DNA of 64,000 bases from a virus. Lineage: Duplodnaviria > Heunggongvirae > Uroviricota > Caudoviricetes. A program made the translations under genes and the position numbers. The stretch lies in IMG/VR virus record IMGVR_UViG_3300023707_000001, one strand, 5' to 3'. Positions 5,103 to 45,868 of the stretch are shown here, piece after piece. Each line of letters opens with the position of its first letter. Within the stretch, counting starts at the first letter, position 1. Under the pieces are notes generated by a model. That model was given only the letters and a program-made list of their open reading frames with translations. It was not told where the DNA came from and searched no databases.

Positions 5103-6400
5103 AAATCTTATAGAATTATATCCATGAGATTATAAGACAGAAAGGCGTTATCTTACTTATCATGAATACAACTGACTTATTTGCGGCAGCTTTGAACCTG
5201 CCGGAACCTTGGTCTATATCCAAGGTGGAGTTCAAGCCGGACTCATCCGGAACTATGGAACTTCATATAGAGCTCTCCTTTCCCAGAGGCAGTAAGTTTG
5301 CTTGCCCCGAATGCGAAGCTGAAACTACTGCCTACGACACGACGCCTAGAACCTGGCGCCACCTTAATTTCTTTCAATACAAGACCTATATCCATGCTGA
5401 CCTACCACGGATTAAGTGCGGCGAACATGGTGTAAAAACCGTCAGCGTCCCTTGGGCTAGAGAAGGTTCTGGTTTTACCCTACTCTTCGAAGGCTGGGTT
5501 GTGGAGCTGGCTAAGCACCTGCCTGTCGCCACTATTGCCAATATGGTAGATGAGCATGACACCCGCCTCTGGCGGTTCATCAAGCATTATGTCGATGAGG
5601 CCCGCGCCCGTGAAGATTACTCCGAAGTCAATGCTATCGGCATCGACGAGACCAGCAAGAAAGGTCACAAGTATGTCACCGTAGTTGTTGACTTGGCCCA
5701 ACGCAAGGTTATCTTTGTTACTAACGGCAAAGATTCTGCCACCGTAGATCGGTTCGTAAAAGACTTCAAGGAACATAAAGGCATTCCGGGCAATATCAAA
5801 ATCGTCACCTGCGATATGTCCTTGGGCTTCAAGAAAGGCATTAACGAGCACTTCGTCAACAGCAGCACTGTCATCGATAAATTCCATGTCATCAAGCATA
5901 TCAATGAAGCTCTGGACGAGGTTCGCCGCGATGAAGTCAGGCAAGGTCCTTGGTATAAGCACCTGCTTAACAAGAGCAAATGGCTCTGGCTCAAGAATGA
6001 TGCGAATCTCACCGATAAACAGCTTGAGCGCAAGGAGTCGCTAATGCACAAGCGCCTGAAAACGGCTAGAGCCTACGCTATGCGCGTTACCCTGCAGGAT
6101 ATTTACGAGACATCTTTTAACCGCACCACCGCTGAAGAGCGTCTTAACCAGCTGTACAATTGGCTCACACGTTCGCGACTTACCCCCATGAAAAACTTTG
6201 CTAAACTGCTAAAAAATCACTGACAGGAAATACTCAATTACTTTGACTATCGCTACACCAACGCTATTTTGGAAGGCATGAATAGCATTATCCAGAATAT
6301 AAAGCGCCGTGCCCGCGGATTCCGTAACGATGAGTATTTCAAGACTATGATTTATCTGGGCTGCGGAAAATTGAATTTAGATATATAAGGGAGAGACTTG
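5103..6400 (+). mobile_element. ISL3-family insertion sequence (boundaries approximate)
   Basis: Contains an ISL3-type transposase. It truncates the tnpB remnant on the left and separates two copies of a duplicated phage gene cassette. Inverted repeats could not be defined by eye. Confidence 0.4.
5162..6223 (+). CDS. ISL3-family transposase, interrupted by an in-frame TGA (homology continues to 6390)
   Basis: N-terminal Zn-finger (CPEC...C..H) and a DDE_Tnp_ISL3-like body. After the TGA at 6221-6223 the same frame encodes QEILNYFDYRYTNAILEGMNSIIQNIKRRARGFRNDEYFKTMIYL, the conserved ISL3 C-terminus. Confidence 0.8.
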   Translation: MNTTDLFAAALNLPEPWSISKVEFKPDSSGTMELHIELSFPRGSKFACPECEAETTAYDTTPRTWRHLNFFQYKTYIHADLPRIKCGEHGVKTVSVPWAREGSGFTLLFEGWVVELAKHLPVATIANMVDEHDTRLWRFIKHYVDEARAREDYSEVNAIGIDETSKKGHKYVTVVVDLAQRKVIFVTNGKDSATVDRFVKDFKEHKGIPGNIKIVTCDMSLGFKKGINEHFVNSSTVIDKFHVIKHINEALDEVRRDEVRQGPWYKHLLNKSKWLWLKNDANLTDKQLERKESLMHKRLKTARAYAMRVTLQDIYETSFNRTTAEERLNQLYNWLTRSRLTPMKNFAKLLKNH

Positions 6401-12461: not shown

Positions 12462-13449
12462 TAGTCGTCATACTCCGTTGTCCATTCATAAGCGGTATCT
12501 ACACGCACGATGGTTTCATAAAGCCCTGCGCCGTGAGCCGAGCATACATACAAGAGCTCTTCCTGAGTCGGCTCATGGTCGAATTTTATCTCGGCCAAAA
12601 ACTCTAAGTCCATTTCGCCTTTGAAGCTGCGGTAATTATGTGCCTTTTTATCCTGTTCCACGGTGACAATCCAGATTTTTCTCATCCGGTCACCTTCATT
12701 GCATACTGCCACAGGCTTTCCGATAAAATTGATGCCGCCGTTTTTGTCTTCGGCCGCCTTTACATCTTCTTCATTCAGACGGATTTTCTTACCGTCTCTG
12801 GTTGTAATGAACATCAACGAAAATACACCCCATCCACATCAATAGCAATTTTGCCATCTCGTTCCCATACATCAAATCCGGTCTCTTCTTGTTCTTCTAC
12901 ATATTGATAAGGGCTGGTCTTGACGGCGACGCGCGCAACAACTTCCATATCGTCCGGATATTCCTTTAGAATATCAATCAGTTCTTTTACATTCATGACA
13001 AAACCTCCAAACGTTCGAGCAGGACGCGGCCGATTGCAAGTCTCACATCGTCTGTATTGAAGTCCTGACAATCATGGCTTTCGTCTACTGCTGAAGTTGT
13101 AAATACATTTTCGATAACATCTTCGGAAATTCTATCTGTAATATCGCCCGCATAATCGCTGCCGGTGACTCCTCGAAGCAACGCAAGTGTAATCTGTTTA
13201 ATTTCTGTTCTTCCTGCGTCGTAATTTTTGTATACAGATTCGTTTGGCATTTTTAACATTCACCTACTTCTTCGTAATCCGTAATCTCAAAAATGTCGCC
13301 GCCGCAGAACAAATCTCCGTCGCTGTACTCATCTTCTGCTTGCCGCCGGAGTTCAGATACATCGTAATCGTCATCAACTTCGATGGTTACGCTGCCTTCT
13401 TTTACGACATTAAAATTAACTCTTACCCTTTTCATACAAGCACCTCCGA

Positions 13450-33390: not shown

Positions 33391-33437
33391 AAACGCGGCG
33401 CGGGGGACTCCACCCTCTACAGAGTGGAGGTGAGCGC
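33391..33437 (-). terminator. nested GC-rich hairpin at iscB 3' end (terminator or IS right-end structure)
   Basis: gcggcgc-ggggga-ctccac-cctctacaga-gtggag-gtga-gcgccgc: a 7-bp outer and 6-bp inner stem. Confidence 0.35.
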
Positions 33438-34685
33438 CGCTTCTCTCCTTTCGACTAAATACGAATTATTATGCATCAAAAATGTTATTTTTGATGGTGC
33501 TACTTCAGCCTTAGTTCCGTCTAGGTGCTTTAAGACAAAAGAACCTTTGACTCTCATACCTCTCACAAACCAGCATTGCTTTTGATAAAACACTGTGTCA
33601 TTTAAGCAGAACCCCCGAACAATATGTCCGGCTTGTGCTCGCTTACGAACGCCGCCTTTTGCTGGCACTTCGCGATGCAACTTACGGTTATGCCGACGAA
33701 TTTGTTTACGAAGATATTCGTAGTTGAGCCGTTCTGCATTGATATTGCCCGCAATACAGTAGGCGTCTGCCGAATGTGTTTTTGTAATACCATTTTTGAT
33801 GCGAGTGTTTTTCGTGATGTAGCCGTATGTTAAATGCACATCAGGATATTGCTCTTTAAGCTTGTTGTAAAAAGCCCAACGCATAATTCCCATGAAAGTC
33901 GCGTCTCGGAATCTCATGCCACGATGTATTGTCTTCGGTAAAGAGATATTGCCTTGATGATATCCCTGATGGCAGGTTTCACAAAGCGTTATCAGGTTAT
34001 TCGGCGCATTGCCTCCAGTCATACGACTTTCAATATGATGTACATTGAGTATTGGGTCGCCAGAACTCCCTTTACAGCACTGACATTGATGACCATCACG
34101 GAATAATACGTATTCACGAACATTCGCCCATCCAAACTGTTCTCCCTGCTGATATTCGACCCCAGAAATATCAGGATTCTTGATTTTCTGAATATCGAAT
34201 TGAGCTACTTCTACAATAACTTTCGTTACCGGAAGAATCTTATGGATATCCGCCACAAGCTTTAGATGAACATTGATTTTGTTCTCCACGCTTGGCGCAA
34301 GCCAACCTTTGTGTTTACGGCGAACCCGATTCAAAAATCTTACTTTGCGATACCGTGTCTTGCGGTTCCGGCGACTGTGACGAAGTTCTAACCGTTTAGC
34401 CAAAAGCCTTACAATAGATGCTTTGCCATCACCAGAGCGCATAATCGTTTCTGAAGCATATAATTCTTGTTTCTCTGTTGATGCTGAGGCTCCGATATGT
34501 ACAGAGCCAGCATCAATACCAAGAGTTATTGGCTGTTTATAGCCAGCTGAGCCATATTTCAACTTAATTGTAAACGGCTCATATTTTACAACCATAGCTT
34601 TGTTTTCCCTCAGCAGCTTTCTAGCTTTCTGAGGTTTACAAGGCATTAACGGTTGTCCGTTTTTATTGATAACGTACACGAACAT
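33417..34685 (-). CDS. iscB: IscB (OMEGA RNA-guided nuclease, Cas9 ancestor)
   Basis: 422 aa with N-terminal PLMP domain (VINKNGQPLMPC), RuvC-I (LGIDAGS), Arg-rich bridge helix, HNH (CQCC...NVHHIESR...N..LCETCH) and RuvC-III. AGGAGG RBS 8 nt upstream. Confidence 0.85.
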   Translation of the reverse strand: MFVYVINKNGQPLMPCKPQKARKLLRENKAMVVKYEPFTIKLKYGSAGYKQPITLGIDAGSVHIGASASTEKQELYASETIMRSGDGKASIVRLLAKRLELRHSRRNRKTRYRKVRFLNRVRRKHKGWLAPSVENKINVHLKLVADIHKILPVTKVIVEVAQFDIQKIKNPDISGVEYQQGEQFGWANVREYVLFRDGHQCQCCKGSSGDPILNVHHIESRMTGGNAPNNLITLCETCHQGYHQGNISLPKTIHRGMRFRDATFMGIMRWAFYNKLKEQYPDVHLTYGYITKNTRIKNGITKTHSADAYCIAGNINAERLNYEYLRKQIRRHNRKLHREVPAKGGVRKRAQAGHIVRGFCLNDTVFYQKQCWFVRGMRVKGSFVLKHLDGTKAEVAPSKITFLMHNNSYLVERREAALTSTL

Positions 34686-34993
34686 AACGTGTACCTCCTT
34701 TCCGAAGCTGAAGCTTCAAATTAGAGTAAATCTACCCTTCGCCAATGTTGTAATCGCTTGCCCGCAATGGCGGGCCGTCCTTAGGTTGACCGTTCCTCCT
34801 CTCAGAACTTTTACAGAGCCTACACAGAGCGGGGAGCTAGGATAAACACCCACGGGTGTGATAACGAAAACAACGTAGTCCGAGGCTTTTTCAAGCACTT
34901 GTCTAATACCGGACTTAGGCTAGTCGGTAAGAGCTTGCTTTCGCAAGCTCCCGCCTTCAAGCGCAAAGCGCTAGACGGGGGTTATTGACTAGA
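34686..34993 (-). ncRNA. IscB omegaRNA (HEARO-like), 5' guide expected at the tRNA-Cys junction
   Basis: About 300 nt directly upstream of iscB, ORF-free and hairpin-dense (GGGAGCTTGC-GAAA-GCAAGCTC, ACACCCGTGGGTGT, GCCCGC-CATT-GCGGGC), running up to the tRNA 5' fragment. Confidence 0.6.
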
Positions 34994-36013: not shown

Positions 36014-36643
36014 TTATGCGCCATACTTTTCGTACGACTTTATCCATTTTGCTATGGCCTTACCAGAAACGCCATAGCGCCGTCCCATCTCAGATTTGTT
36101 GCGACCAACTTCTTCATACTCTTTGAAGAATTCTTCTTTCGTTGGACGCACCGTCTTTCTTGCCCAGGGACGTATATTTCCTAAGACCGCTTCATCGACA
36201 TCATAATGGTTACAGAATTTTTCTTTTTCCATCGCTTTTTTTGCAACTTTTTCTTCTGCTATACGAACTCTTTCTTTTAGTGGAACAATCCATTTTTCGT
36301 ATTCATTAAGTTTGTGCTGTCCTTTAGCATGTTCTTCGGCATGGCAGTTAGCGCAAAGAAGAACACATTTGTCTAATTCCTTTTTTAAGCGATGCCAGCC
36401 GAGATTGTATTTTTGTCCAATGCCAAAATTCTTTTGCTGGGGGTCGAGATGATGGAATACCAATGCATTTTCGCATTTATCGTATCCGCATACCTGACAT
36501 TTCCTGCCTTTGTACTTAACAGCTCTTTGTTTCAAAAGCTTTTTTCTATAGTTTTGTCTGCAAGTGTTACAAATGTCTTTTGAGTGTCCTTTACTGCGGC
36601 CATATTCATATTCATTGCCACAAACTTTACATACATATTTCAA
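36014..36643 (-). CDS. HNH homing endonuclease with C-terminal HTH
   Basis: HNH core VFHHLDP...N...LLCANCH with a flanking Zn-ribbon CKVCG...CNTC; C-terminal GRRYGVSGKAIAKWIKS helix-turn-helix. Confidence 0.7.
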   Translation of the reverse strand: MKYVCKVCGNEYEYGRSKGHSKDICNTCRQNYRKKLLKQRAVKYKGRKCQVCGYDKCENALVFHHLDPQQKNFGIGQKYNLGWHRLKKELDKCVLLCANCHAEEHAKGQHKLNEYEKWIVPLKERVRIAEEKVAKKAMEKEKFCNHYDVDEAVLGNIRPWARKTVRPTKEEFFKEYEEVGRNKSEMGRRYGVSGKAIAKWIKSYEKYGA

Positions 36644-36725
36644 TTCATATCACCGTAGGCAACATTACCTATTGTGTGAACTTAAAACATGATGTTAGTT
36701 CAAAAAGTGCTCACAAATTAATTAA

Positions 36726-36804
36726 TGGTCCAGGCGGTGGGACTTGAACCCACGTAAGACACGGCTTATAAGGCCGCCGCTACCACCAACTTAGCTACGC
36801 CTGG
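36726..36804 (-). tRNA. tRNA-Ile(TAT) (AUA decoder)
   Basis: Acceptor CCAGGCG/CGCCTGG, D-arm GCTA-AGTTGGTGG-TAGC, anticodon arm GCGGC-CTTATAA-GCCGT, T-arm GTGGG-TTCAAGT-CCCAC, CCA. Confidence 0.55.
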
Positions 36805-36810
36805 GTAAGG

Positions 36811-36850
36811 TGGACCCCTCAGGGCTTCTAACCAACTGAGCTAGGGGTCC
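36811..36850 (-). ncRNA. ~40-nt tRNA-like hairpin (acceptor stem + D-arm only)
   Basis: GGACCCC-TA-GCTCAGTTGGTTAGAAGC-CCTGA-GGGGTCC-A-CCA. Confidence 0.3.
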
Positions 36851-37113
36851 TTAATCGAGACGACATGGCATTTTGCCGTCTCTAGTGAGTTTTTTTGCTA
36901 ACGTCGGGAGTTCGCCTACTCCCTCGATACACCTATCGCGGTATTCTGCGCTTGACATCTATAACGGCCAGTCAAGTCTCCGGCAGGTTATGGTTTTCTG
37001 CATACCATTTCCGCACCTGGTTGCCTTGCAGGCTCTCATTTACCCTTTGTTTCAGTTAGATAATTGCGCACTCATCATTGCCTATTCCTCAGGGTAAACT
37101 AAAACGGATTCCT

Positions 37114-37141
37114 CCCCGCTGAGACGCTAACCTCGTTGGGG
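37114..37141 (+). promoter_or_regulatory. conserved hairpin, ACGCTAAC loop variant (cccc-gctgag-ACGCTAAC-ctcgtt-gggg)
   Basis: Member of a 5-copy family with invariant loop and covarying stems. Confidence 0.4.
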
Positions 37142-37706
37142 ACATGATATAAACGGGAATGTTGCTGCGGTAGCTGCAAATCCTACCGCAACTCCCGTGA
37201 TACTTTTACGAAGCTCGAAACGGAGGATGCCAACCCGTCATTCTACAGACTCGTCCTTTGCAGTGGACTACTGATGGCCCCTTTATTATATAATTGCGTT
37301 GATACCCGACTGTTAATGCAGTATCCTGGGGCATATAGCCGCCCGCTTTTTGGTTAGTATATGACTCTTCCCGACAGAGCATCATCAGCTAAGTGATGTC
37401 TTGGGGTTTATGTCTTGTCCTTGACAACCGGCTTTGCCTTGTCACGGCATCCCATGATGCTTGGTCTGTCATGGTATCCGCCGAAATCTAACCCTGTCAT
37501 TTCGGTAACTGATTTTCGTACAGTCATTTTTCAGGATGATCAGTCCTGCAATCAGGTTTACGCTGCTTTCTTACGCATAGCAGTAAATACGCGGCGCGGC
37601 AACGCCAATCACCTGTTGGCGCAGGTGTTTTTGCTGTTTCTCGTTCAGCTCCGACAGGTGAATTCAGGCCTGTCCAATTACGCTCTTGTCGCAACCAAGA
37701 GAGGTA

Positions 37707-37761
37707 TCTACTCTGCAGGAATCGAACCTGCTTCTTCCAAAAGGCCACCAGACCAGAGTAC
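37707..37761 (-). ncRNA. ~55-nt anticodon-arm-less tRNA-like element (mini-tRNA)
   Basis: GTACTCT...GCAGG-TTCGATT-CCTGC-AGAGTAG; the middle TCTGGTGGCC... is similar to the 41999-42053 copy. Confidence 0.3.
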
Positions 37762-38761
37762 ATGATATTAGATGCGATAACCGACTTTATAATTCTTCGT
37801 CATCAAGCCAATCTTGAAAACTCATTTTTATCCCCTTTTTAATAAATTACGCGGGCGGAACGACGGAAGTTCCCGCGTGAGGTGCTTTTCTTATCTTAAG
37901 GCGGCAGCACCCTTCCTGCTTGAAGTGCACATCGGCAGGTTATTGCGTTCGGCCGGACTGGCTTACATCTTTTACGCCCTAAACCCGTTGCAAACGTGGG
38001 CGGAGGATTTTTACTGCTTTACTGCAGGTTCTGAAGCTCTCTTGTCAATGTCCGTACGGACTTGCACCGTACACCTCCCCCTTACCGGGGTGCCACTACT
38101 GTTATGACTAAGTATTTGACCTCTACGTCGCCGGACTCTAACACGGCTATTGACTCCTGGGTGCGAGCTCGACATATTCACAGACGCTCCTGCTGTGATG
38201 GGTTTTAATGTCTTTTCCTTGACAATTTTATGGTTGTCACGATTTGGTGAATTTCGTGTGGCAGCACAATTTCCGCTTTTGACTGCAAAAGTCGATAAGC
38301 TTTATTTATCTGCCAATATCTTTTATGAGATTTGTTCATTGAAAGGATGCGGTCGTGAGCCGAAATCGCTTCATGCGCTTTAGCTATACCTGCATTAATA
38401 CTTTCGATTACTTGCTCCGGAAGTTTAGTCTGCATATCTCTCACCATCCTCTGGCAACGGCTGGCCGGTATATATTATGCCACCCACTTTGCCGCATTTA
38501 GGACAATCCCATTTAGCAAGCCATTCCCCCTGCTTGTGCACGGACAACCAACGGTGCATGCAATGCAGGCAGATTACTTCGGCCACTTCATGCGGACTGT
38601 TCTTTTCTTTGTACTCTTGTAAATCAATGACCTTGCTCATGTTCTATCTTCATCGTTCAACATAGATACAGCTCCAATCGCTATTGCCCCAATCATTACA
38701 AGGGCGAAAATTAACATAAAGCCTGCAAAGACACTATCTGCTGCCGTCATACTTACACCTC

Positions 38762-39319
38762 TTAATATCGTATCCTCTTATAAGCTAACCAGTCTGTGGC
38801 ACCCATGAATAAGTTTGCTATGCATTGTGCCGCGATACAATACTCTACACTAATCTGCGTAAAGATTATCGCGATTACGCTGCCTAATAGTGCCGCCGTC
38901 AGATTAACCGTTTTAGACAAGCTGTTCCATTTTGTCAATCTATCGCCCTCAATCTTATGATTGATTGCGTCATTTACCACAGTAAACCAAAGAGTTGATG
39001 ATACGGCATTTAAAACAGCTAAGCCTAAGAATCTGACTTCCGGGATTGATATGCCTTCAAAACTGATAAGCGCGAAACAGACAACATCTATTGCGATTAT
39101 CCATAAGAAGTGATGCCGATAAAAGTCTTTGAGTTTATCTGACTGGATAGATGCGTTTACGCCTGCCGCCAAAGCGGTGGTCAGAATATTGGCCATGGCC
39201 AAAACACTGGAACTTATCAGGCTTATAAAATATATGTGGATAATTGGCGATGTTGCTGAATAAACAAAGTCTACGACAGCAGTACCGCCGAGAAGGTATA
39301 ACTTTACTTTCTTTTCCAT
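38762..39319 (-). CDS. polytopic membrane protein (185 aa)
   Basis: Five to six hydrophobic helices. Confidence 0.45.
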   Translation of the reverse strand: MEKKVKLYLLGGTAVVDFVYSATSPIIHIYFISLISSSVLAMANILTTALAAGVNASIQSDKLKDFYRHHFLWIIAIDVVCFALISFEGISIPEVRFLGLAVLNAVSSTLWFTVVNDAINHKIEGDRLTKWNSLSKTVNLTAALLGSVIAIIFTQISVEYCIAAQCIANLFMGATDWLAYKRIRY

Positions 39320-39837
39320 TTATCTTTTATGCCTTTGCTTTCCAGATAGGCGATTACGCCTCTATCAAAAACCTCATAGTGTTTCTGGTCATACGGTCTT
39401 CTGTCACGTAACATTGCCGAATCGTGAGAAATGCCGATAATATTTCCGCCCGCTTTTTTACAAAAACGGTCATACATCTTCTCAATCGGGTTCCCAATTA
39501 CCACTGTCCATTCCAACTTGTGAAACCCTCTATCGACGAATAGATATTTTAAGAACTGGTAAAAGTCTTTTGAAAAAACAAGGTCACACTTGGGGCCATA
39601 GTTGATTACACTCATACTGGCCAGCCTGTTAAGCGTTTCGTCGACAGCTACGCTAAAATATCCATGTACATTGTCTTCTTTATCGACTGATACCATCTGG
39701 ATGTTATTCCAGGTATTCTTGTCAACAACAATCTCTGTTTCCCATCCACCGTAATACCACTTTGTGTTTGGGTTCATCCAGTTTGCACGGTCCGTTTTAC
39801 GGAGCGCGTCTTCGTAATCCATCGCAAAAGCTAACAA
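39304..39837 (-). CDS. hypothetical protein, possibly GNAT-fold acetyltransferase (177 aa)
   Basis: RGFHKLEWTVVIGNPIEKMYDRF resembles GNAT motif A/B; weak. Confidence 0.35.
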   Translation of the reverse strand: MLAFAMDYEDALRKTDRANWMNPNTKWYYGGWETEIVVDKNTWNNIQMVSVDKEDNVHGYFSVAVDETLNRLASMSVINYGPKCDLVFSKDFYQFLKYLFVDRGFHKLEWTVVIGNPIEKMYDRFCKKAGGNIIGISHDSAMLRDRRPYDQKHYEVFDRGVIAYLESKGIKDKWKRK

Positions 39838-39966
39838 AATATTTTCCCCTTTCTCATATCAGTTCATTAAGACAAATCTATAATCCGGTGCAAGCTTCCG
39901 GAAAACATTTCAATAGATTTGCCTTAATCAGCCGATATGGCTGATTTCTTAAGCTCCGTAATTTTC

Positions 39967-39996
39967 GTTCCTTTGAGACGTTAACCTCATCGGAAC
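39967..39996 (+). promoter_or_regulatory. conserved hairpin gttcc-tttgag-ACGTTAAC-ctcatc-ggaac
   Basis: Two-tier stem with invariant loop; lies 3' of the tmRNA candidate. Confidence 0.4.
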
Positions 39997-40003
39997 GGTG
40001 GCT

Positions 40004-40033
40004 GCCGCTTCAAGACGTTAACCTTGTCGCGGC
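40004..40033 (+). promoter_or_regulatory. conserved hairpin gccgc-ttcaag-ACGTTAAC-cttgtc-gcggc
   Basis: As above. Confidence 0.4.
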
Positions 40034-40035
40034 CG

Positions 40036-40433
40036 TGGAGACGACGGGAGTCGAACCCGTGTCCAAAATGCATCCACCTGTAAGACATTATCGCAATAGG
40101 CATTTTTAAGAGCGCCATTCTCTAGGGTGTAACCAGCCGAACAAAGCGTAATGGTCTACACCTCCACCACCTGCTTTTTCGAAAGCAGGAAAACTCCCCG
40201 TGTTGTTTACGTCGAGCGGGCCTCCTGACGTTTGCTGTGTTTATTTGAAACCTACCGCCCTGCTCACAGCTAGTGATACGATAGGGGCTAACCAATCTAC
40301 CTTACGGCAGATTAGGCAGCGAGACGATATTCAACTTCGTCAGTTAAATTTAGCGGTTAATGAGTTAGACGTCATAACCATCGGTCTGCGAATCTTACGG
40401 CTTCAACACCCTGTCGAAACCAATTTCGTCCCC
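40036..40433 (-). ncRNA. ssrA: tmRNA (ssrA) candidate, tag ending ...DEVEYRLAA
   Basis: 5' GGGGACGAAATTGGTTTCGACAGGG and 3' GGACACGGGTTCGACTCCCGTCGTCTCCA closely parallel E. coli tmRNA ends (GGGGCUGAUUCUGGAUUCGACGGG ... GGACGCGGGUUCAACUCCCGCCAGCUCCACCA). The acceptor pairs GGGGACG/CGTCTCC. An internal frame reads ...ACT GAC GAA GTT GAA TAT CGT CTC GCT GCC TAA. Confidence 0.65.
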
Positions 40434-41998
40434 ATATGACCCTTTCGGGTCAGGCTATTAAACGCTTTTACTGGTATGAAAGATGATGAAGTACCAGTGC
40501 AGGTTTTTAGTGCCCGAGATACAGCAGCACTGTGTCGGATTGACCCATCCAAGCTTTGGCAAATAACTGCCCGATACCTGGGGGGTAAGCTTTACCGATT
40601 TGAACGAGATTGCTGTCCCTGTCTTTGCTTACGAGGTCTAATAATAGCATGCTCCGCATTGCGCTATACGGAACAAGGTACTCCTTCCGCATTTGTCGCG
40701 AATGAGCTATGATACCCGAAAGGATAAGCAGTATCTGGAGAATTTGGAGATGGGTTAGTCTCCATGACCGAGTTCTCGCTTTTTTTTATGAATTCCTTTT
40801 ACGGCCGCCAAGTAACTTACTCACCCCGCAGGGGAGGCCCACATGTCTTTGGCGTTTACCGGATTACTGCCGTAGCCACCGGTTTCCCTGCTTAACCCTG
40901 TGCCAAGCAGTTATCTTATGCAGGTTTTATGTCGGTTCTTCCGACTCGGGCGGCTTATTACGTAGTGCCCTTACCCTACGCCGTTTTTCGCCTTGGAGGC
41001 TAAATCACCTTCGTGCCTGTTATTATCCTTAAGTTGATAAGCTGTGTACTTTAGCTCATCCAGATAAAAGTAATCCAGGTACGCTTGGCGCAACCTTGCT
41101 ACCACTGAACCGAGCTACCGTTTGTACTTTACGGCGTTATCGGGGTGGACCAGGTTTTATATTCTTCGGTATACCTCCACCGAAAGGAATGCCTTCGCGT
41201 CGTTATTCTGAGTGCTAAAAACCGTGGCCTTTAGTTCTTACTTCCTCAGCAATTGTCCGATAGCGAACGCTCCGATAAAGGTCATCTCTTCGGCTGTTGG
41301 CACCGGGTAATCGAGACGCCTGCACACAGCAGTGCGAACCCAAAAACGCGGTTGGCCTATTCTGGTTACAGCCAAGGGTAATGGAGCCCTTATCCCGGTT
41401 TAACCTACCGTGCCGGGCAAGGAAAGCTTTCGTGTCGTGGAACGCGGCCTTATCGCCTGTCCGGCATGCTCCTTTCGGGACATCCGGGGTCCACGGTGAC
41501 TCAAGCTGGCTGTCTATTTACGCGCTCGCAGCCATTGAACGCCCGATTCTTAGAACTTCGGAAAACCCGCGAAATATTCATGGAGCTGTTTAACGTGCTT
41601 TACACCTTCATCGTCGCGGAAGCTTGACCTCACGGGCTATCCTAAGCTTATACACACCCGATAGCCAATTGGTGCCCGATTTTAATATCGGGAAACATCT
41701 TGATGCCCGGCTCCCAAGGCAGCATCATGGATTTAACATCGCCTGTAAAGGTAGCGACCCTTTTACATTTCCGGCGCCCAATTGCGCACGGTGGAGATTG
41801 GATAAGCGCTCCTTGCAGGAATCGAACCTGCCTTATGTACTGGATTGGTTATCCAGTATAAGCATAGCTCCCAGAGTTGGAACATTATAGGCGCCTGATA
41901 TGCTTTTACCATCCCTCAGGCGGGGGATGCCACGTCTGGAAATCATTGTGGCACAATGTTTGTTCCGAAAAGATTGATCATTTCCCTCAGAACAATGT

Positions 41999-42053
41999 TG
42001 CTCAATACAGGAATCGAACCTGTCTACCGGCCGGTGTCCCCCAGACTTTGAGC
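41999..42053 (-). ncRNA. ~55-nt anticodon-arm-less tRNA-like element (mini-tRNA)
   Basis: GCTCAAA-GT-CTGGGGGACACCGGCCGGTAGA-CAGG-TTCGATT-CCTG-TATTGAGC. Confidence 0.3.
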
Positions 42054-42058
42054 ATGAT

Positions 42059-42129
42059 ACCCCCAAGAAGGATTCGAACCTTCGCCGCAAGCCGTAGCCT
42101 TACGAGCTCTGCCGGAGGAGCTTTGGGGA
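42059..42129 (-). tRNA. degenerate tRNA-like gene (pseudo-tRNA)
   Basis: Acceptor TCCCCAA/TTGGGGG, D-arm GCTC-CTCCGGCA-GAGC, T-arm GAAGG-TTCGAAT-CCTTC; no canonical anticodon arm. Confidence 0.3.
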
Positions 42130-42139
42130 TGTATGATAT

Positions 42140-42222
42140 AGGGGCAGGGAGGAATCGAACCACCATCATAAGAAAGCCCCATTTGCTTTCTCGTCCGCTC
42201 TAGCCATTTGAGCTACTGCCTC
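42140..42222 (-). tRNA. tRNA-like gene with 7-bp anticodon-like stem and non-canonical loop AAATGGG
   Basis: Acceptor GAGGCAG/CTGCCCC, D-arm GCTC-AAATGGCTA-GAGC, hairpin AGAAAGC-AAATGGG-GCTTTCT, T-loop TTCGATT. Confidence 0.3.
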
Positions 42223-43083
42223 ATTATGGGGGCGACTTGTTTTACATCCTGCCGCCTTCGGATATGCGGTCAACCGTTGCCTCTACCGCCAGGGGGAATT
42301 TATACGATTTTTTTCCTTATCGGGTTTTATCGTCTTTTCCTTGACACGTATGATACAATAGACATCGGCTGAGAATATCGTAAAAATACTTTATCTACCT
42401 TTCACAAAACATGCATAACAAATGCTCCTCACCGAGCATTCCTTGCTACTGGGCAAGCACGGTAGCAATACATGTAGGCCAGGTATGGGATAACAGCTCG
42501 CAATCTTGCAAAAGACCTCGCGACCTGCCCGCCCCGCTGAAGTTTTTCCAAAAAACTTAGAAAGGAAGATTTAGCCATGGAATTATCCTTGACTCCGGAG
42601 TTTTTCGACTCTTTGCGCGATGCGCTGTATGCCGTCGCACTCGTAGTTTTAGCGTTTAAGTCCTAATACTTGCATAAAACGATATTCCCGGCTATTTTTA
42701 TATCTATTGCATCATACCTGCCAAGGAGGCAGGTATTTTTTGATTGCTGCTCGTCTCAAACAGCTTGGCTACTCAGCGTCGGTGTAGCCTCTCGTGCCGG
42801 GTTTTAACGGCTTTTCCTTGCCGTTGCCCACGGTCGAACCGTGAAAGCCTTGCACCTATCCGGCTTGTCCTCTAGGGCCGGATGTACCGTATTTCTTTAG
42901 GCGTTCATACGGTGTCCTCATTGGAGACTTTCTACCACTGGCCAAGTTTCTTTCTGGGCGCTCCGGAGGCTTGCAGGAAGCGGTACAGCCTCTCTGCATT
43001 CTTTATTCGCTGCATGGTTCTCTTGGCAACCAGCAGTCAGGTCACGCATGTTTTATGGCCGACATTAGTGTCGGTCGCAAAAT

Positions 43084-43380
43084 TTAAAAATCTGAATCTC
43101 GCTCGTAAGTTTCCTCAATTTTATATGAGTGAATTTCTAAGCGATGTTCACCATCGTTGTAATACGCGCCATTGTCACAATCTTCAAGGCCGTATTCATT
43201 AACCCAGTCGTCATAGCATGCCTGGGCGGCTTCGGCGTTTGAAAAAACACCCATAACGTCCTGGTCATAATCATCGCATAAAGTTTGGTGAATAACCATA
43301 TATACTGTCATATTCTTCTCTCCTAAAACAGGATTCTCATAAGGTGGACGATATTCTATGGCCTCATCCGGGCCAGTCAC
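43084..43380 (-). CDS. hypothetical acidic protein (98 aa)
   Basis: Minus ORF inside the RNA-gene region. Confidence 0.4.
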   Translation of the reverse strand: MTGPDEAIEYRPPYENPVLGEKNMTVYMVIHQTLCDDYDQDVMGVFSNAEAAQACYDDWVNEYGLEDCDNGAYYNDGEHRLEIHSYKIEETYERDSDF

Positions 43381-43391
43381 ATGGAGGGGAT

Positions 43392-44036
43392 TTATTCAAA
43401 GCTGCCAAAACTAATAGTCGGAAACACTTCCTGGCGCATCTTTATTATCTGCTTTCGCTTTTCATCGAAATAAACAAGACAGTTTTCGGGAATACGGCCG
43501 ACTACCTCAAAAGTTCGCACGAAAGGCATTTCCAATAAACCTACGAATGGATTCTTCTCTCTTATATCAAGTGAACCCTCGTAAGATGTTCCCAGGATAA
43601 CCCATGTCTGCGCATCGGCAGTGATTTCGCTTTCCAGAATATCACGTACATCCTGTGTTGTTCCTGCGCTTGCGAATTCGTCAATGAACGTTACTGTGCG
43701 TCGTTTATCCGAACACAATGTAATCATATTGTGCTCATTGGGAACGATGTCGATTTGCGGATACTGTTTCTTGTAATCATCGCCAAGGACTTCTTTTAGA
43801 GTCCTTTCCATAAATTTGGAATGAACTATATAACCGCACTTAATGACAATGTGGTCAGCCATATCTTGGGATAAGATTTTCTTTACCGCATTGGCGATAA
43901 AAGTGGTTTTGCCAAAACGACGGTCTACGTTGATTGCTGTTATGCCGCCGTCGATAAGATTCGCCAATGGAATCTTATCAAACCAATCTCCAGCCCCATA
44001 GCTGCAAATAACTTGTTTTTCAAGACAATTGCTCAT
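43392..44036 (-). CDS. RecA-superfamily P-loop ATPase (RadB/KaiC/Sak4-like, 214 aa)
   Basis: G.GDWFDKI...LIDGGI...VDRRFGKTTF parallels the RecA/KaiC Walker A region; Walker B VTFIDEF. Confidence 0.5.
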   Translation of the reverse strand: MSNCLEKQVICSYGAGDWFDKIPLANLIDGGITAINVDRRFGKTTFIANAVKKILSQDMADHIVIKCGYIVHSKFMERTLKEVLGDDYKKQYPQIDIVPNEHNMITLCSDKRRTVTFIDEFASAGTTQDVRDILESEITADAQTWVILGTSYEGSLDIREKNPFVGLLEMPFVRTFEVVGRIPENCLVYFDEKRKQIIKMRQEVFPTISFGSFE

Positions 44037-44936: not shown

Positions 44937-45173
44937 GGTTGAGCAGTTATTTCATGCTCAGGAACTACTCTGTTTTCCAATTCTACCGACGGATTAAGGC
45001 AGTCTCGTGGCCGAATAGTAGCCATTTTTTGTCATTAAGACCGTCTGGGACTCAACAACATATATCTAATCCCTTTGCAGGGGATTATTCATAGAATACT
45101 GCATTTGGTACTTGGCTCAGGGGGGGTAATGATACCACGCTGCAGTGGGCGTCCAGGAAATTGTTAGCCTCTA

Positions 45174-45192
45174 ACCAGACGTTAACCTGGTG
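45174..45192 (+). promoter_or_regulatory. conserved hairpin aaccag-ACGTTAAC-ctggtg
   Basis: Fifth copy of the motif. Confidence 0.35.
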
Positions 45193-45316
45193 TTGGGCAT
45201 TATCAGGCGGCCGGCAATTTTTACATCCCTCGACCGCGAAGGATACCGCTTTCGCGGCACTACACGTAGTGTTGCGCCCAGTCGGTTGATCGGACCAACC
45301 GGACTAATATTAGCTA

Positions 45317-45391
45317 AGCCAATGCCAGGACTCGAACCTGGGTCGCCGAGGTTACAGTTTCGGTGCTCTCTCCCTATTGAGCTACATCGGC
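45317..45391 (-). tRNA. tRNA with 18-nt anticodon arm (8-nt loop; anticodon TGT or GTA ambiguous)
   Basis: Acceptor GCCGATG/CATTGGC, D-arm GCTC-AATAGGGA-GAGC, anticodon arm CCGA-AACTGTAACC-TCGG, T-arm CCAGG-TTCGAGT-CCTGG; no CCA encoded. Confidence 0.45.
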
Positions 45392-45868
45392 ATGATGAAT
45401 ATGGACAAAACGCCAGCCAGGACTAAAAATCTTTGGTTGTAACCACCAATAAAAGTAAAATACCTGGATTTTTATCCGACCGTCAACCCCATACCTTAAA
45501 TATACTTTTTTCAAAAAAAGAAAATTAAATGGTGACGGTGCTTCTTTAAAGGTTTGCGCTTTTATCGTTAAACGAAAAAATCTTTAACAGTTAAATCTTT
45601 CAGCTTTTTGCTTTAGATTTTTGAGCTTTGCAAGGTAGGGCTCCATTGTGCGGAGCAATCTTCTTTATTCATATACGCTTTAAAAAAGCGGTGCCAATTG
45701 TTCATATCGGCTGATTTTCCACATACTTGCATGTGCTGTTAGAACCATTTTATACTTTGGTCAGAAGTTGTTACTTGCAAGATTTTCAGCGCTTCATCCA
45801 TATAAAATTGTGTGTAGTTTTGAAACTTTATATTTTGCGACTGACATGAATGTCGGTCGCAAAATTTC

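What the first reader, a model, noticed from the sequence alone, without database searches (positions are those of the whole stretch)
36851..38200. Long ORF-free, GC-balanced, hairpin-rich stretches inside the tRNA array, candidates for large structured ncRNAs
Three ORF-free blocks lie at 36851-38200, 40440-41990 and 42230-43080. None has an ORF over 100 aa on either strand. They sit in a genome that is otherwise about 95% coding, and they show many GNRA-type hairpins (ccgaaagg, cggaaacc, gcgaaagc), long-range complementary segments and T-tracts. Large ornate RNAs such as ROOL and GOLLD are known to sit next to tRNA clusters in phages of gut and rumen bacteria. Group I introns or RNase P RNA are alternatives. 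I could not match any of them to a consensus by eye.
Basis: inference. Interest (0 to 1): 0.6.

Follow-up and report, generated by a model that had tools for sequence, protein, structure and literature searches.

The report
Phage non-coding RNAs with coremin-like caps
The three gene-free stretches are real, conserved, folded non-coding RNAs in a phage tRNA island; they belong to no described RNA family, and several begin with a two-hairpin signal that closely resembles the "coremin" element RNA viruses use to stop RNA-degrading enzymes.

Summary
All three blocks are non-coding. Compared with a related 211-kb phage contig, they show no codon periodicity and many indels. They diverge only 12-23% (one sub-block 31%), against 36-41% at third codon positions of neighbouring genes. 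Consensus folds beat shuffled alignments (z -4 to -6.4; coding controls -1 to -3.6). The three-sequence alignments hold 9-13 compensatory pairs against about 3 expected. Rfam 15 finds no ROOL, GOLLD, intron, RNase P or 6S in them. The relative does carry a true ROOL in the same tRNA array. GNRA hairpins are not enriched, and blocks 1-2 are no more stable than coding DNA.

The blocks are modular. They hold uncalled tRNA-like elements and RNA modules, several of which start with hairpin(loop AAGGAAAA)-UAAAACC-hairpin. This element occurs in about 60 viral contigs, cultured Bacillus phi29-like phages, Clostridia prophages and diverse RNA viruses. Its stem covaries in 51 of 52 viral copies, against 9 of 48 genome hits, most of them chance matches. 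Its architecture, stem and half of its spacer match the Xrn1-resistant coremin motif. Canonical coremin occupies the same slot in other dsDNA phages.

Best reading: stable phage ncRNAs of unknown function, capped by a coremin-class block to 5'-to-3' decay. The decay-blocking step is inferred, not shown.

The parts
38172..38224 (-). Coremin-like element, copy 3. hp1 is tgtc/gaca with loop AAGGAAAA, spacer tTAAAACC, and hp2 is (c)atcacag...ctgtga. It marks the 5' edge of RNA module B1a and overlaps the stop codon of the 80-aa ORF 38205-38447.
   Evidence: (repeat family D7). The orthologous copy is kept in L068 at 12050.
37850..38199 (-). B1a: a structured RNA of about 350 nt, ending in a G+C-rich hairpin (37850-37877) followed by TAATTTATT.
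   Evidence: 81% identical to L068. 77 consensus pairs, 7 with compensatory double changes, including GUACGG/CCGUAC -> GCGUGG/CCACGU. Alifold z -4.05 against -3.19 for the reverse strand. No codon periodicity.
37290..37845 (-). Variable segment with no counterpart in L068. It holds a 12-codon mini-ORF, a mini tRNA-like element (acceptor + T arm, 37709-37760) and a degenerate motif copy.
37402..37426 (-). Variant coremin-like copy: tgtc AAGGACAA gaca TAAACCCC.
36824..37289 (-). B1c: a conserved RNA of about 465 nt upstream of tRNA-Ile. L068 carries an extra tRNA-like gene inserted in the middle. It ends in an acceptor/D-arm-like hairpin at 36812-36850.
   Evidence: 83-84% identical to L068. Alifold z -5.76, reverse strand -3.30. 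L068 tRNA-like at 12999-13068.
40434..41800 (-). B2: a conserved non-coding RNA region of about 1.37 kb that runs directly into the tmRNA gene. Long invariant single-stranded stretches alternate with covarying helices. 41540-41690 is a window-specific insertion inside a hairpin.
   Evidence: Three-way alignment with L068 and L070. RNAalifold pieces A6, A3 and A4 have 9, 11 and 13 pairs with compensatory double changes in the tool tables. z is -5.3, -4.3 and -5.3, and compensatory pairs exceed all 60 shuffles. 12 and 13 double changes against 0-2 in slid controls. No codon periodicity.
40922..40945 (-). Internal variant copy: gtcgg AAGAA ccgac a TAAAACC. Kept in L070, replaced in L068. Weaker look-alikes lie near 41159 and 40508.
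41805..42222 (-). Run of tRNA-like elements:
- 42140-42222: Rfam tRNA at 33.9 bits, with a non-canonical anticodon loop AAAUGGG.
- 42061-42128: a full cloverleaf that neither tool calls.
- 42000-42053: acceptor + T arm only.
- 41805-41872: T arm plus a long hairpin.
   Evidence: The region is 86% identical to L068, but L068 lacks 42005-41815.
42305..42346 (-). Coremin-like element, copy 2: tgtc AAGGAAAA gacg a TAAAACC, with hp2 cgat...atcg. It heads the leader of the tRNA-like run.
42347..42727 (-). B3b: a closed domain. Its 5' arm (42727-42700) pairs with its 3' arm (42375-42345). A small conserved hairpin has a CCUU/UCCUU loop.
   Evidence: Single-sequence z -6.98, 0 of 100 shuffles as stable. 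Alifold z -6.4, but compensatory pairs only at chance. 69% identical to L068, where the domain sits in a different order.
42742..42825 (-). Coremin-like element, copy 1: aacggc AAGGAAAA gccgtt AAAACC, plus a branched hp2 region.
   Evidence: The orthologue in L068 (7201) has stem tagac/gtcta, so hp1 is kept through compensatory changes.
42857..43047 (-). B3a: a conserved RNA segment of about 190 nt, downstream of the gene-end hairpin at 43048-43085.
   Evidence: 87% identical to L068. Single-sequence z -2.36. Alifold z -2.6, with 3 compensatory pairs against 0.5 expected.
40033..40433 (-). Context: phage-encoded tmRNA (tag DEVEYRLAA) immediately 3' of B2.
   Evidence: 90.7 bits.

Best explanation
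The three blocks are transcribed from the minus strand together with the tRNAs and the tmRNA, as a chain of non-coding RNA modules. tRNA and tRNA-like elements probably act as RNase P/Z cutting points. Several of the larger modules (B1a, B3b, the leader of the tRNA-like run) begin with a two-hairpin element:
- hp1 of 3-6 bp with a C-G closing pair and loop AAGGAAAA;
- the spacer (G/A)UUAAAACC;
- a variable hp2.

I read this element as a variant of the coremin class of exoribonuclease-resistant RNA (xrRNA_C). In that reading it is a compact fold that mechanically stops enzymes moving 5' to 3' along RNA. Candidates are RNase J in Gram-positive hosts, and possibly 5'-end-dependent scanning by RNase E elsewhere. 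After processing or decay from the 5' side, the downstream structured RNA would then accumulate as a stable species, as flaviviral sfRNAs and benyvirus ncRNA3 do.

What the stabilised cargo RNAs do is unknown. By position and size they resemble ROOL and GOLLD.

Shown: non-coding status, purifying selection, conserved secondary structure, modular organisation, the covarying two-hairpin element, and its distribution.

Inferred: co-transcription, processing at the tRNA-like elements, nuclease resistance, and any cargo function.

The confidence of 0.5 is for the whole statement. Taken separately: about 0.8 that the blocks are conserved structured ncRNA modules, about 0.75 that the element shares the coremin architecture, and about 0.4-0.45 that it blocks 5'-to-3' decay in phage-infected cells.
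For: Non-coding and constrained:
- No open frame under any code.
- Substitutions against L068 show no 3-periodicity and many indels. Flanking genes show strong periodicity (p 1e-6 to 1e-16) and 36-41% third-position divergence, against 12-23% in most blocks (31% in B3b).

Structured:
- Consensus-fold z is -4 to -6.4 for most pieces (B3a only -2.6), against -1.0 to -3.6 for coding controls.
- Compensatory pairs exceed all shuffles in the three-sequence alignments.
- 12-13 double changes against 0-2 in slid controls.
- The window's minus strand scores better than the plus strand.

The element:
- Five copies in the blocks, all on the minus strand, and only two weak look-alikes in the rest of 128 kb.
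- An exact-pattern scan gave 64 viral loci.
- The unconstrained 5' strand pairs in 51 of 52 unique viral copies, against 9 of 48 genome hits; most of the genome hits lie in ORFs and look like chance matches.
- The middle base pair is U-A 27, A-U 29, G-C 3, C-G 1.
- At pair 4 there are 16 G-U against 4 A-C, which points to sense-strand RNA.
- hp2 plus a UAA tail is present in 52% of copies, against 10% of chance hits and 6% of shuffles.

Link to coremin:
- Coremin is GUC-CGAA-GAC-GUUAAACUAC-hp2. It needs a 3-5 bp hp1 with a C-G closing pair, a conserved 10-nt spacer and a variable hp2. Natural lp1 loops of 4-8 nt are known (PMC6546385, PMC10520033).
- Carriers of the AAGGAAAA variant include tombus-, sobemo/luteo-, picorna- and noda-like RNA viruses. 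There it lies in the RdRp-CP intergenic region or the 3' UTR.
- Canonical coremin itself is on many 20-60 kb dsDNA phage contigs and in Streptococcus phage Javan351, about 100 nt upstream of scaffold and capsid genes.
- The variant sits in the same slot in L012, L016, L060 and L066.

Other support:
- In L032, L049, L055, L111 and LUZ100 the element lies between about 10 and 50 nt downstream of a sigma70-type promoter.
- Cultured carriers include Bacillus phages MG-B1, QCM11 and Goe4.
- A flaviviral xrRNA blocks bacterial RNase J1 in vitro (PMC5760640).
Against: - Only two alignable relatives exist (L068, L070), and the structures were predicted from the same sequences used to count covariation.
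- Single-sequence stability of blocks 1-2 is ordinary.
- B3b shows no excess of compensatory pairs.
- The loop AAGGAAAA violates the experimentally defined YGAD/YGNNAD rule. AACGAA and ACGAAA loops failed in the BNYVV context.
- The 3' half of the spacer (ACCC) differs from CUAC at positions where single mutations abolished Xrn1 stalling.
- Related copies occur in phages of Pseudomonas, E. coli and Vibrio, which to my knowledge lack RNase J. An RNase-J-only story therefore cannot be complete.
- Loop constancy is partly ascertainment, because the scan pattern fixed AAGGAAAAG.
- No transcript data are available.
- Consensus promoters and terminators in the region are at or near chance.
- The internal copies in B2 are poorly conserved.
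Confidence: 0.5

Rival explanations
1. The two-hairpin element acts on transcription or binds a protein rather than blocking nucleases. It could be a put- or nut-like processive antitermination signal, or the handle for a phage or host RNA-binding protein (CsrA-like GGA-loop binding, ribosome or S1 binding as in STAB-SD 5' stabilisers). The blocks would still be ncRNAs.
For: - The element sits just downstream of promoters and ahead of long operons or hairpin-rich RNA arrays.
- An rrn-type boxA lies nearby in LUZ100 and forsur.
- The purine-rich AAGGA loop resembles a Shine-Dalgarno or CsrA site.
- Tandem arrays occur, as in MG-B1.
- It is present in phages of hosts that, to my knowledge, lack RNase J.
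Against: - The identical element occurs in 3' UTRs and intergenic regions of at least four RNA-virus lineages, where a bacterial RNA polymerase signal makes no sense.
- No protein family is shared by the carrier loci; the best is 11 of 73.
- The architecture and half of the sequence match a motif shown to work without protein (PMC6546385).
Confidence: 0.2
2. The blocks are decaying remnants of a tRNA array (pseudo-tRNAs and spacers) with no function of their own.
For: - At least six truncated or non-canonical tRNA-like elements are present.
- Their number differs between relatives through recombination at T-arm repeats.
- 37290-37845 is not conserved.
- Thermodynamic stability of blocks 1-2 is ordinary.
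Against: - Outside the tRNA-like run the sequence has no tRNA similarity.
- Divergence is about half that of synonymous sites.
- Compensatory changes are well above controls.
- Invariant stretches of 20-40 nt are shared by three phages.
Confidence: 0.1
3. The blocks are highly diverged members of ROOL, GOLLD or another described large RNA family, below the detection limit of the covariance models.
For: The genomic context is the same (tRNA island of a phage; PMC12286853). A true ROOL is present in the relative's array.
Against: - There are no matches even at E <= 10 with permissive filters.
- The ROOL of L068 scores 216 bits, so the model works in this lineage.
- The blocks align with other parts of L068, not with its ROOL.
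Confidence: 0.05
4. The blocks hide protein-coding genes, either small ORFs or recoded genes.
For: - Antisense ORFs of 106-116 aa exist.
- A 12-codon ORF with a ribosome-binding site lies near 37826-37788.
- B1c shows marginal periodicity, p = 0.024.
Against: - Stop codons of all three kinds occur in all frames.
- There is no periodicity elsewhere, and many non-triplet indels.
- No Pfam or PHROG matches.
Confidence: 0.03

Closest known systems
Coremin motif / xrRNA_C (Xrn1-resistant RNA of beny-, cucumo- and many other RNA viruses; Dilweg, Gultyaev, Olsthoorn; PMC6546385, PMC10520033)
   Same: - Two short hairpins separated by a conserved spacer of about 10 nt.
- The hp1 stem is literally GUC/GAC, with an obligatory C-G closing pair and a freely covarying second pair.
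- The spacer starts GUUAAA and contains the essential A-run followed by C.
- hp2 is variable in sequence and follows directly.
- Tandem repeats occur.
- It is found in 3' UTRs and intergenic regions of RNA viruses.
- Canonical coremin and this variant occupy the same slot upstream of scaffold and capsid genes in dsDNA phages.
   Different: - The loop is AAGGAAAA (AAGGAUAAA in Gram-negative phages) instead of YGAD or YGNNAD.
- The spacer ends ACC(C) instead of CUAC.
- Carriers include dsDNA phages and prophages.
- Nuclease resistance has not been tested.
ROOL and GOLLD (large ornate RNAs of phages and prophages near tRNA islands; RF03087, RF01998; PMC12286853)
   Same: - Large (0.35 to over 1.3 kb), conserved, structured and protein-free-looking RNAs, embedded among phage tRNAs.
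- A tRNA-like gene is inserted within one module in a relative, as is reported for GOLLD linkers.
- A true ROOL lies in the same array of the closest relative.
   Different: - There is no sequence or structure match to either model.
- The RNAs are lineage-restricted: only two relatives were found.
- Nothing is known about multimerisation.
5' mRNA stabilisers of Gram-positive bacteria and their phages (SP82 polypurine stabiliser, cryIIIA STAB-SD, 5'-terminal stem-loops that block RNase J1); from my own knowledge, not checked here
   Same: A 5'-proximal element with a purine-rich, Shine-Dalgarno-like sequence that would protect downstream RNA from 5'-to-3' decay.
   Different: Those elements act through a bound ribosome or a simple terminal hairpin. 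Here the unit is a conserved two-hairpin fold that is shared with RNA viruses.
HK022 put RNA and lambda nut sites (processive antitermination); from my own knowledge
   Same: Promoter-proximal position, two stem-loops, and a location ahead of long operons.
   Different: put and nut are not found in RNA viruses, and they show no sequence similarity to this element.

Membership tests
ROOL (RF03087) | Covariance-model score at or above the gathering threshold (99.1 bits). | tested here: not met
   No hit in the window at gathering, nor at E <= 10 in 36700-43500. The model detects the relative's ROOL at 216 bits.
ROOL / GOLLD | Location in a phage or prophage next to a tRNA island. | tested here: met
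   Context as described in PMC12286853.
GOLLD (RF01998), group I/II introns, RNase P RNA, 6S RNA | Covariance-model match. | tested here: not met
   No match at E <= 10.
tRNA (RF00005) | Cloverleaf scoring at least 29 bits with a canonical 7-nt anticodon loop. | tested here: inconclusive
   42140-42222 scores 33.9 bits, but its loop AAAUGGG lacks U33. ARAGORN and Rfam do not call the other four elements.
Coremin / xrRNA_C | hp1 of 3-5 bp with a C-G (pyrimidine-purine) loop-closing pair; stem sequence otherwise free. | tested here: met
   C-G closing pair in 60 of 60 copies. The second pair covaries (UA 27, AU 29, GC 3, CG 1). Stems are 3-7 bp.
Coremin / xrRNA_C | lp1 consensus YGAD (4 nt) or YGNNAD (6 nt). 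Hepta- and octaloops that start with CG are tolerated. | tested here: not met
   The loop is AAGGAAAA, with variants AAGGACAA, AAGGGAAGG and AAGGAUAAA. AACGAA and ACGAAA failed in the BNYVV context (PMC10520033).
Coremin / xrRNA_C | Conserved 10-nt spacer GUUAAACUAC, with A16-A20 essential. | tested here: inconclusive
   The spacer is (G/A/U)UUAAAACC. GUUAAA and a following C are shared, but the CUAC end is replaced by ACC(C). Streptococcus phage Javan351 has the intermediate UAAAAACUAC.
Coremin / xrRNA_C | A second hairpin, variable in sequence, directly after the spacer. | tested here: met
   52% of copies have a simple hp2 of at least 4 bp plus a UAA tail, against 6-10% in controls. The rest have longer branched stems. 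All three perfect window copies have one.
Coremin / xrRNA_C | Located in the 3' UTR or intergenic region of RNA virus genomes. | tested here: met
   Holds for the RNA-virus carriers. The window and the other phage carriers are dsDNA, which is outside the described range.
Coremin / xrRNA_C | Stalls Xrn1 at the base of hp1 without protein cofactors. | not testable with these tools
   Needs an in vitro degradation assay.

The most novel reading that the evidence does not exclude
Coremin-class exoribonuclease-resistant RNAs are not confined to eukaryotic RNA viruses. One and the same mobile RNA module is used by dsDNA phages of Bacillus, Streptococcus, Clostridia, Bifidobacterium and even Gram-negative hosts, at the 5' ends of late mRNAs, early leaders and ncRNAs. 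In this rumen phage it caps a set of previously undescribed large structured RNAs in the tRNA island. The result would be bacterial counterparts of flaviviral sfRNAs, produced by blocking RNase J or 5'-end-dependent decay.
Probability: 0.4. Interest if true: 0.9.

Novelty: new variant of a known kind. Interest (0 to 1): 0.7.

Why it matters
The blocks add a further set of large, conserved, structured phage RNAs next to tRNAs, beside ROOL and GOLLD, whose function is still an open question.

The element at their 5' edges links two fields that have not met. xrRNAs have been described only in RNA viruses of eukaryotes, and RNase J1 has been called an enzyme that xrRNAs "never naturally encounter" (PMC5760640). 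If the phage copies are functional, RNA-structure-based nuclease blocking is a cross-realm viral strategy.

The idea is directly testable in cultured Bacillus phages. It would also give a compact RNA-stabilising part for Gram-positive synthetic biology.

It further means that several 'hypothetical protein' calls in phi29-like phages, such as MG-B1 genes 021 and 022, probably lie on a non-coding RNA array.

Tried and rejected
- Stop-codon reassignment (TGA, TAG, TAA) opens no long frame.
- blastn of the blocks against 50,697 GenBank phages gave no match.
- Relatives fetched through the 177-aa protein were too distant and have no tRNA island.
- Relatives fetched through the 185-aa protein: only L068 and L070 are alignable in the blocks. 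L069, L071 and L072 share only the gene.
- A scan for an invariant 18-mer of B2 found only the known relative and one chance hit in a coding region.
- Single-sequence folding z-scores were uninformative for blocks 1-2. My first shuffle script timed out.
- The consensus promoter and terminator scan was at or near chance.
- Rfam on 20 motif-bearing loci shows that no family covers the element.
- No protein co-occurs with the element across loci.
- I considered and dropped, from memory of their consensus features:
  - class 3 (dianthovirus/polerovirus) xrRNA, which has a different architecture;
  - an HDV-like/theta or hatchet ribozyme;
  - ANTAR dual hexaloops;
  - RAT;
  - the phi29 pRNA, which lies elsewhere in those genomes.
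- MAFFT could not align the variable hp2, so no covariance model of the element was built. The hp2 statistics were done by script instead.
- A literature search by sequence string was uninformative.
Full report
**Setting.** The window is part of a large phage genome with small genes almost all on the minus strand. Identified genes include an NAD-dependent DNA ligase, a PcfJ-like protein, a methyltransferase and a tail-fibre-like protein. Between about 32.6 and 45.4 kb lies a minus-strand RNA island. It holds:
- 13 tRNAs called by ARAGORN and one more by Rfam;
- a tmRNA at 40033-40433;
- an IscB gene with its HEARO RNA at 33417-34989.

The three flagged stretches lie inside this island.

**The observation.** The blocks have no plausible coding capacity. 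All three stop codons occur in every frame, and reassigning any one of them opens nothing longer than about 200 codons. Four antisense ORFs of 106-116 aa touch the blocks. That number is what chance predicts, and none matches Pfam or PHROGs.

G+C is 48-50% against 44% overall.
- GNRA hairpins closed by three pairs number 5 in the blocks, against 6.4 expected.
- 150-nt folding z-scores average -0.54 (block 1) and -0.66 (block 2), against -0.6 to -1.35 in coding controls. Only block 3 (-1.8) stands out.

**Known families.** Rfam 15 at gathering thresholds finds only tRNAs, the tmRNA and HEARO in the window. A permissive search of 36700-43500 (E <= 10) adds nothing in the blocks. So ROOL, GOLLD, group I/II introns, RNase P and 6S are not present in detectable form. 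No GenBank phage resembles the blocks.

**Relatives.** A 211-kb IMG/VR contig (L068, also held as L017 and L018) is collinear with the island. It matches the blocks at 69-88% identity. A 2-kb metagenome contig (L070) covers 41932-40456. L076 and L077 come from the same source as the window.

Rfam finds a genuine ROOL RNA (216 bits) in L068, between two tRNAs of the same array. It lies just upstream of the region homologous to window 45393. The window has no ROOL there. This agrees with the literature that ROOL and GOLLD sit near phage tRNA islands (PMC12286853). It also shows that the flagged blocks are something else.

**Non-coding but constrained.** Against L068, the neighbouring genes show the coding signature. 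Mismatches by codon position are 21/2/65 and 49/35/89 (p 3e-16 and 1e-6), with few or no gaps and third-position divergence of 36-41%. The blocks show flat distributions (for example 33/30/34) and 5-41 gap columns. Their overall divergence is 12-23%, or 31% for B3b, which is close to the phage tmRNA at 12%. The blocks therefore evolve more slowly than nearly neutral sites without being translated.

**Conserved structure.**
- *B1a (38230-37845 against L068).* RNAalifold gives 77 pairs, 7 with changes on both sides. One hairpin changes from GUACGG/CCGUAC to GCGUGG/CCACGU. One variable hairpin is replaced by a different hairpin.
- *B2, three sequences.* Pieces A6, A3 and A4 give 9, 11 and 13 compensatory pairs.
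- *Shuffle control.* Against column-shuffled alignments, consensus energies have z = -4.05 (A1), -4.31 (A3), -5.31 (A4) and -5.29 (A6). Compensatory pairs exceed all 60 shuffles for A3, A4 and A6. The window's minus strand scores better than the plus strand, most clearly for A4 (-5.3 against -1.0).
- *Other pieces.* B1c gives -5.8, B3b -6.4 and B3a -2.6. Coding controls give -1.0 to -3.6, with compensatory counts at chance.
- *Pair-counting tool.* It gives 12 and 13 double changes against 0-2 when partners are slid, and 0 of 500 shuffles reach the observed covariation score.

Caveats: there are only two or three sequences, and the structures were derived from them. B3b owes its score to one long closing helix (single-sequence z -6.98) and has no compensatory excess.

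**Anatomy.** Read 5' to 3' on the minus strand, the island is modular.
- *Block 3.* A gene-end hairpin at 43085-43048 comes first, then B3a. Motif copy 1 follows at 42825, then the closed domain B3b (42727-42347). Motif copy 2 at 42346 heads a leader.
- *tRNA-like run.* Four tRNA-like elements occupy 42222-41805. One just passes the tRNA model, one is a full cloverleaf that no tool calls, and two keep only the acceptor and T arms.
- *Block 2.* About 1.37 kb of conserved RNA runs straight into the tmRNA. Invariant stretches of 20-40 nt alternate with covarying helices. There is a 150-nt window-specific insertion inside a hairpin, and other insertions in L068 and L070.
- *Block 1.* Motif copy 3 lies at 38224. 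Next comes a 350-nt RNA that ends in a G+C-rich hairpin and a T-rich tail. A 550-nt segment follows that is not conserved and holds a mini tRNA-like element and a degenerate motif. Last is the conserved B1c, which runs up to tRNA-Ile.

Relatives differ by module shuffling at motif copies and by deletions between T-arm repeats. So part of the 'decayed tRNA' alternative is true for the tRNA-like run, but not for the large modules.

**The recurring element.** A 25-nt repeat (family D7) reads gNc-AAGGAAAA-gN'c-nn-UAAAACC-C. A relaxed search finds five copies in the blocks, all on the minus strand, and only two weak look-alikes in the other 120 kb of both strands.

An exact scan for AAGGAAAAGNCNNTAAAACCC found 64 loci in IMG/VR and 51 in 596 Gb of prokaryote genomes. 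The pattern does not constrain the 5' strand of the stem, yet it pairs in 51 of 52 unique viral copies. It pairs in only 9 of 48 genome hits. Most of the rest lie in ORFs of unrelated bacteria and behave as chance matches. The paired genome hits are prophage-like loci of Lachnospiraceae, Ruminococcus, Oscillospiraceae, Acutalibacteraceae, Clostridium, Bifidobacterium and a Patescibacterium, plus one doubtful hit in a methanogen MAG (L104).

The middle pair is U-A 27, A-U 29, G-C 3, C-G 1. At the fourth pair G-U outnumbers A-C 16 to 4, as expected for an RNA read in this orientation. A second hairpin starts at the last C and is followed by (G)UAAA in 52% of copies, against 10% of chance hits and 6% of shuffles. 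No Rfam family covers the element in 20 loci.

**Where the element sits elsewhere.**
- About 10 to 50 nt downstream of canonical TTGACA-17-TATAAT promoters (L032, L049, L055, L111, LUZ100).
- Directly after a tRNA 3' end (L054, L083, L106, L114).
- Upstream of tRNAs (L011, L022).
- About 100 nt upstream of scaffold and capsid genes, after a terminator-like T-tract (L012, L016, L060, L066).
- As about eight tandem modules that fill a 1.2-kb stretch of Bacillus phage MG-B1, between the gp6 side and the SSB gene. Only two antisense 'hypothetical' ORFs are annotated there. The pRNA of these phages lies elsewhere (PMC6266182).
- A sister variant, AAGGAUAAA, follows the early host promoters of Pseudomonas phage LUZ100, Escherichia phage forsur and a Vibrio phage.

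**RNA viruses.** Many of the small IMG/VR contigs that carry the element are RNA viruses. They encode RdRP_3 (3e-93), RdRP_4 or RdRP_1 polymerases, S-domain coats or a nodavirus coat. The element lies between RdRp and coat genes or just after the last ORF. That position, and the architecture, led to the coremin motif.

Coremin is GUCCGAAGACGUUAAACUAC plus a second hairpin. It stalls Xrn1 without protein. It requires:
- a 3-5 bp hp1 with a C-G closing pair;
- a YGAD loop, with later variants YGNNAD and CG-initiated loops of up to eight nt;
- a conserved 10-nt spacer whose A-run and 3' half are essential;
- a sequence-independent hp2 (PMC6546385, PMC10520033).

The element here shares the GUC/GAC stem, the closing pair, GUUAAA-C of the spacer and the hp2 rule. 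It differs in the loop and in the last three spacer bases. The papers do not mention this variant, bacteria or phages. No paper in the library links coremin or xrRNAs to phages.

**Canonical coremin in DNA phages.** Of 64 unique copies, 60 have a complementary middle pair and 59 have an hp2. Many lie on 20-60 kb phage contigs, right after a T-tract and about 100 nt upstream of the scaffold (MNLQLFAEGG...) and capsid genes. That is the same slot the AAGGAAAA variant holds in other phages. Streptococcus phage Javan351 has GUC-CGAA-GAC-UAAAAACUAC there, a spacer intermediate between the two forms. This positional interchangeability is the strongest argument that the two forms do the same job.

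**Mechanism proposed.** The element is a coremin-class roadblock at the 5' edge of phage RNAs. After RNase P/Z cuts at tRNA or tRNA-like elements, or after pyrophosphate removal from a primary transcript, a 5'-to-3' activity would run into it and stop. The downstream structured RNA would remain as a stable species. In Gram-positive hosts that activity would be RNase J. That an xrRNA can stop RNase J1 has been shown for a flaviviral xrRNA (PMC5760640).

The copies in Gram-negative phages imply that the target cannot be RNase J alone. 5'-end-dependent scanning by RNase E is a candidate, from my own knowledge. None of this has been tested. The loop and spacer differences fail two experimentally defined coremin rules, so I file the element as 'works like, not a proven member'. 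An antitermination or protein-handle role is the main rival. It fits the promoter-proximal positions but not the RNA-virus carriers.

**Verdict.**
- The blocks are real, conserved, structured non-coding RNA modules: confidence about 0.8.
- Their 5' elements are a coremin-like variant: architecture about 0.75, nuclease-blocking function about 0.4-0.45.
- The cargo function is unknown.
- The host is not identified. Strong Shine-Dalgarno sites and the Clostridia prophage carriers suggest a rumen Firmicute.

Noticed in passing
window 33417-34989 (-): IscB (RRXRR + HNH, 422 aa) with its HEARO/omega RNA (83.7 bits) lies inside the tRNA island. An HNH endonuclease gene is at 36014-36643.
   Followed up: partly
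L068 2734-3317: The closest relative carries a bona fide ROOL RNA (216 bits) between two tRNAs of the same array. The window has about 470 nt of unrelated AT-rich sequence at the corresponding place (45400-45868).
   Followed up: partly
window 40033-40433 (-); L070: The window has a phage-encoded tmRNA (tag DEVEYRLAA). The tmRNA and the adjacent 177-aa gene are missing in relative L070, where block 2 abuts the 185-aa gene directly.
   Followed up: no
window 45317-45391 (-); L068 3372-3445: ARAGORN reports this tRNA with a 2-nt 'anticodon'. The anticodon loop is 8 nt (ACUGUAAC) in the window and 7 nt (ACGUAAC) in the relative. It could be an odd decoder or just a variant.
   Followed up: no
window 44937-45316 (-): This is a fourth ORF-free stretch between two tRNAs. 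It is 78-82% identical to L068 with alifold z -5.1, so it is probably another RNA module that the finding did not list.
   Followed up: partly
window ~42265-42225, ~41925-41885, ~45232-45195 (-); L070 1-40 and ~130-165: A recurrent leader, 'hairpin ending GGAUG, (G)UAAAA, 6-8 nt, GCCGCCCC, (U)AUAAUG', sits immediately before tRNA or tRNA-like genes. It could be a promoter or a processing signal.
   Followed up: no
window 43048-43085 and 45830-45867 (-): The hairpin AAATTTTGCGACCGACA...TGTCGG/TGTCAGTCGCAAAA is repeated at 82% identity, directly after two gene ends. It is probably a terminator or a stabilising hairpin.
   Followed up: no
L130 2500-3700 (Bacillus phage MG-B1, NC_021336 about 9.5-10.8 kb): About eight tandem copies of the AAGGAAAA/UAAAACC two-hairpin module fill a 1.2-kb stretch of the early region. 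The two annotated antisense hypothetical genes (mgb1_021, mgb1_022) are probably spurious.
   Followed up: partly
L134, L139, L151, L162 (IMG/VR dsDNA phage contigs); L251 1500-1590 (Streptococcus phage Javan351): The canonical coremin motif (GNC-CGAA-GNC-NUUAAACUAC + hairpin) lies about 100 nt upstream of the scaffold and major capsid genes of many Firmicutes-type phages. It is followed by repeated GGAGACACC...AAAACUG units.
   Followed up: partly
L254 451-476 (Pseudomonas phage LUZ100), L252 701-726 (Escherichia phage forsur), L253 701-728 (Vibrio virus VPMCC6): The variant gucA(A/U)GGAUAAAgacgUUAAAACCC lies 30-50 nt downstream of strong sigma70 early promoters. An rrn-type boxA (TGCTCTTTAACAA) is nearby in LUZ100 and forsur.
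   Followed up: partly
window 42715-42697 (-) and L068 about 5875-5890: A small conserved hairpin has the loop UCCUU/CCUU, complementary to the AAGGA of the motif loop. In L068 it serves as hp2 of a motif copy, so a loop-loop contact is possible.
   Followed up: no
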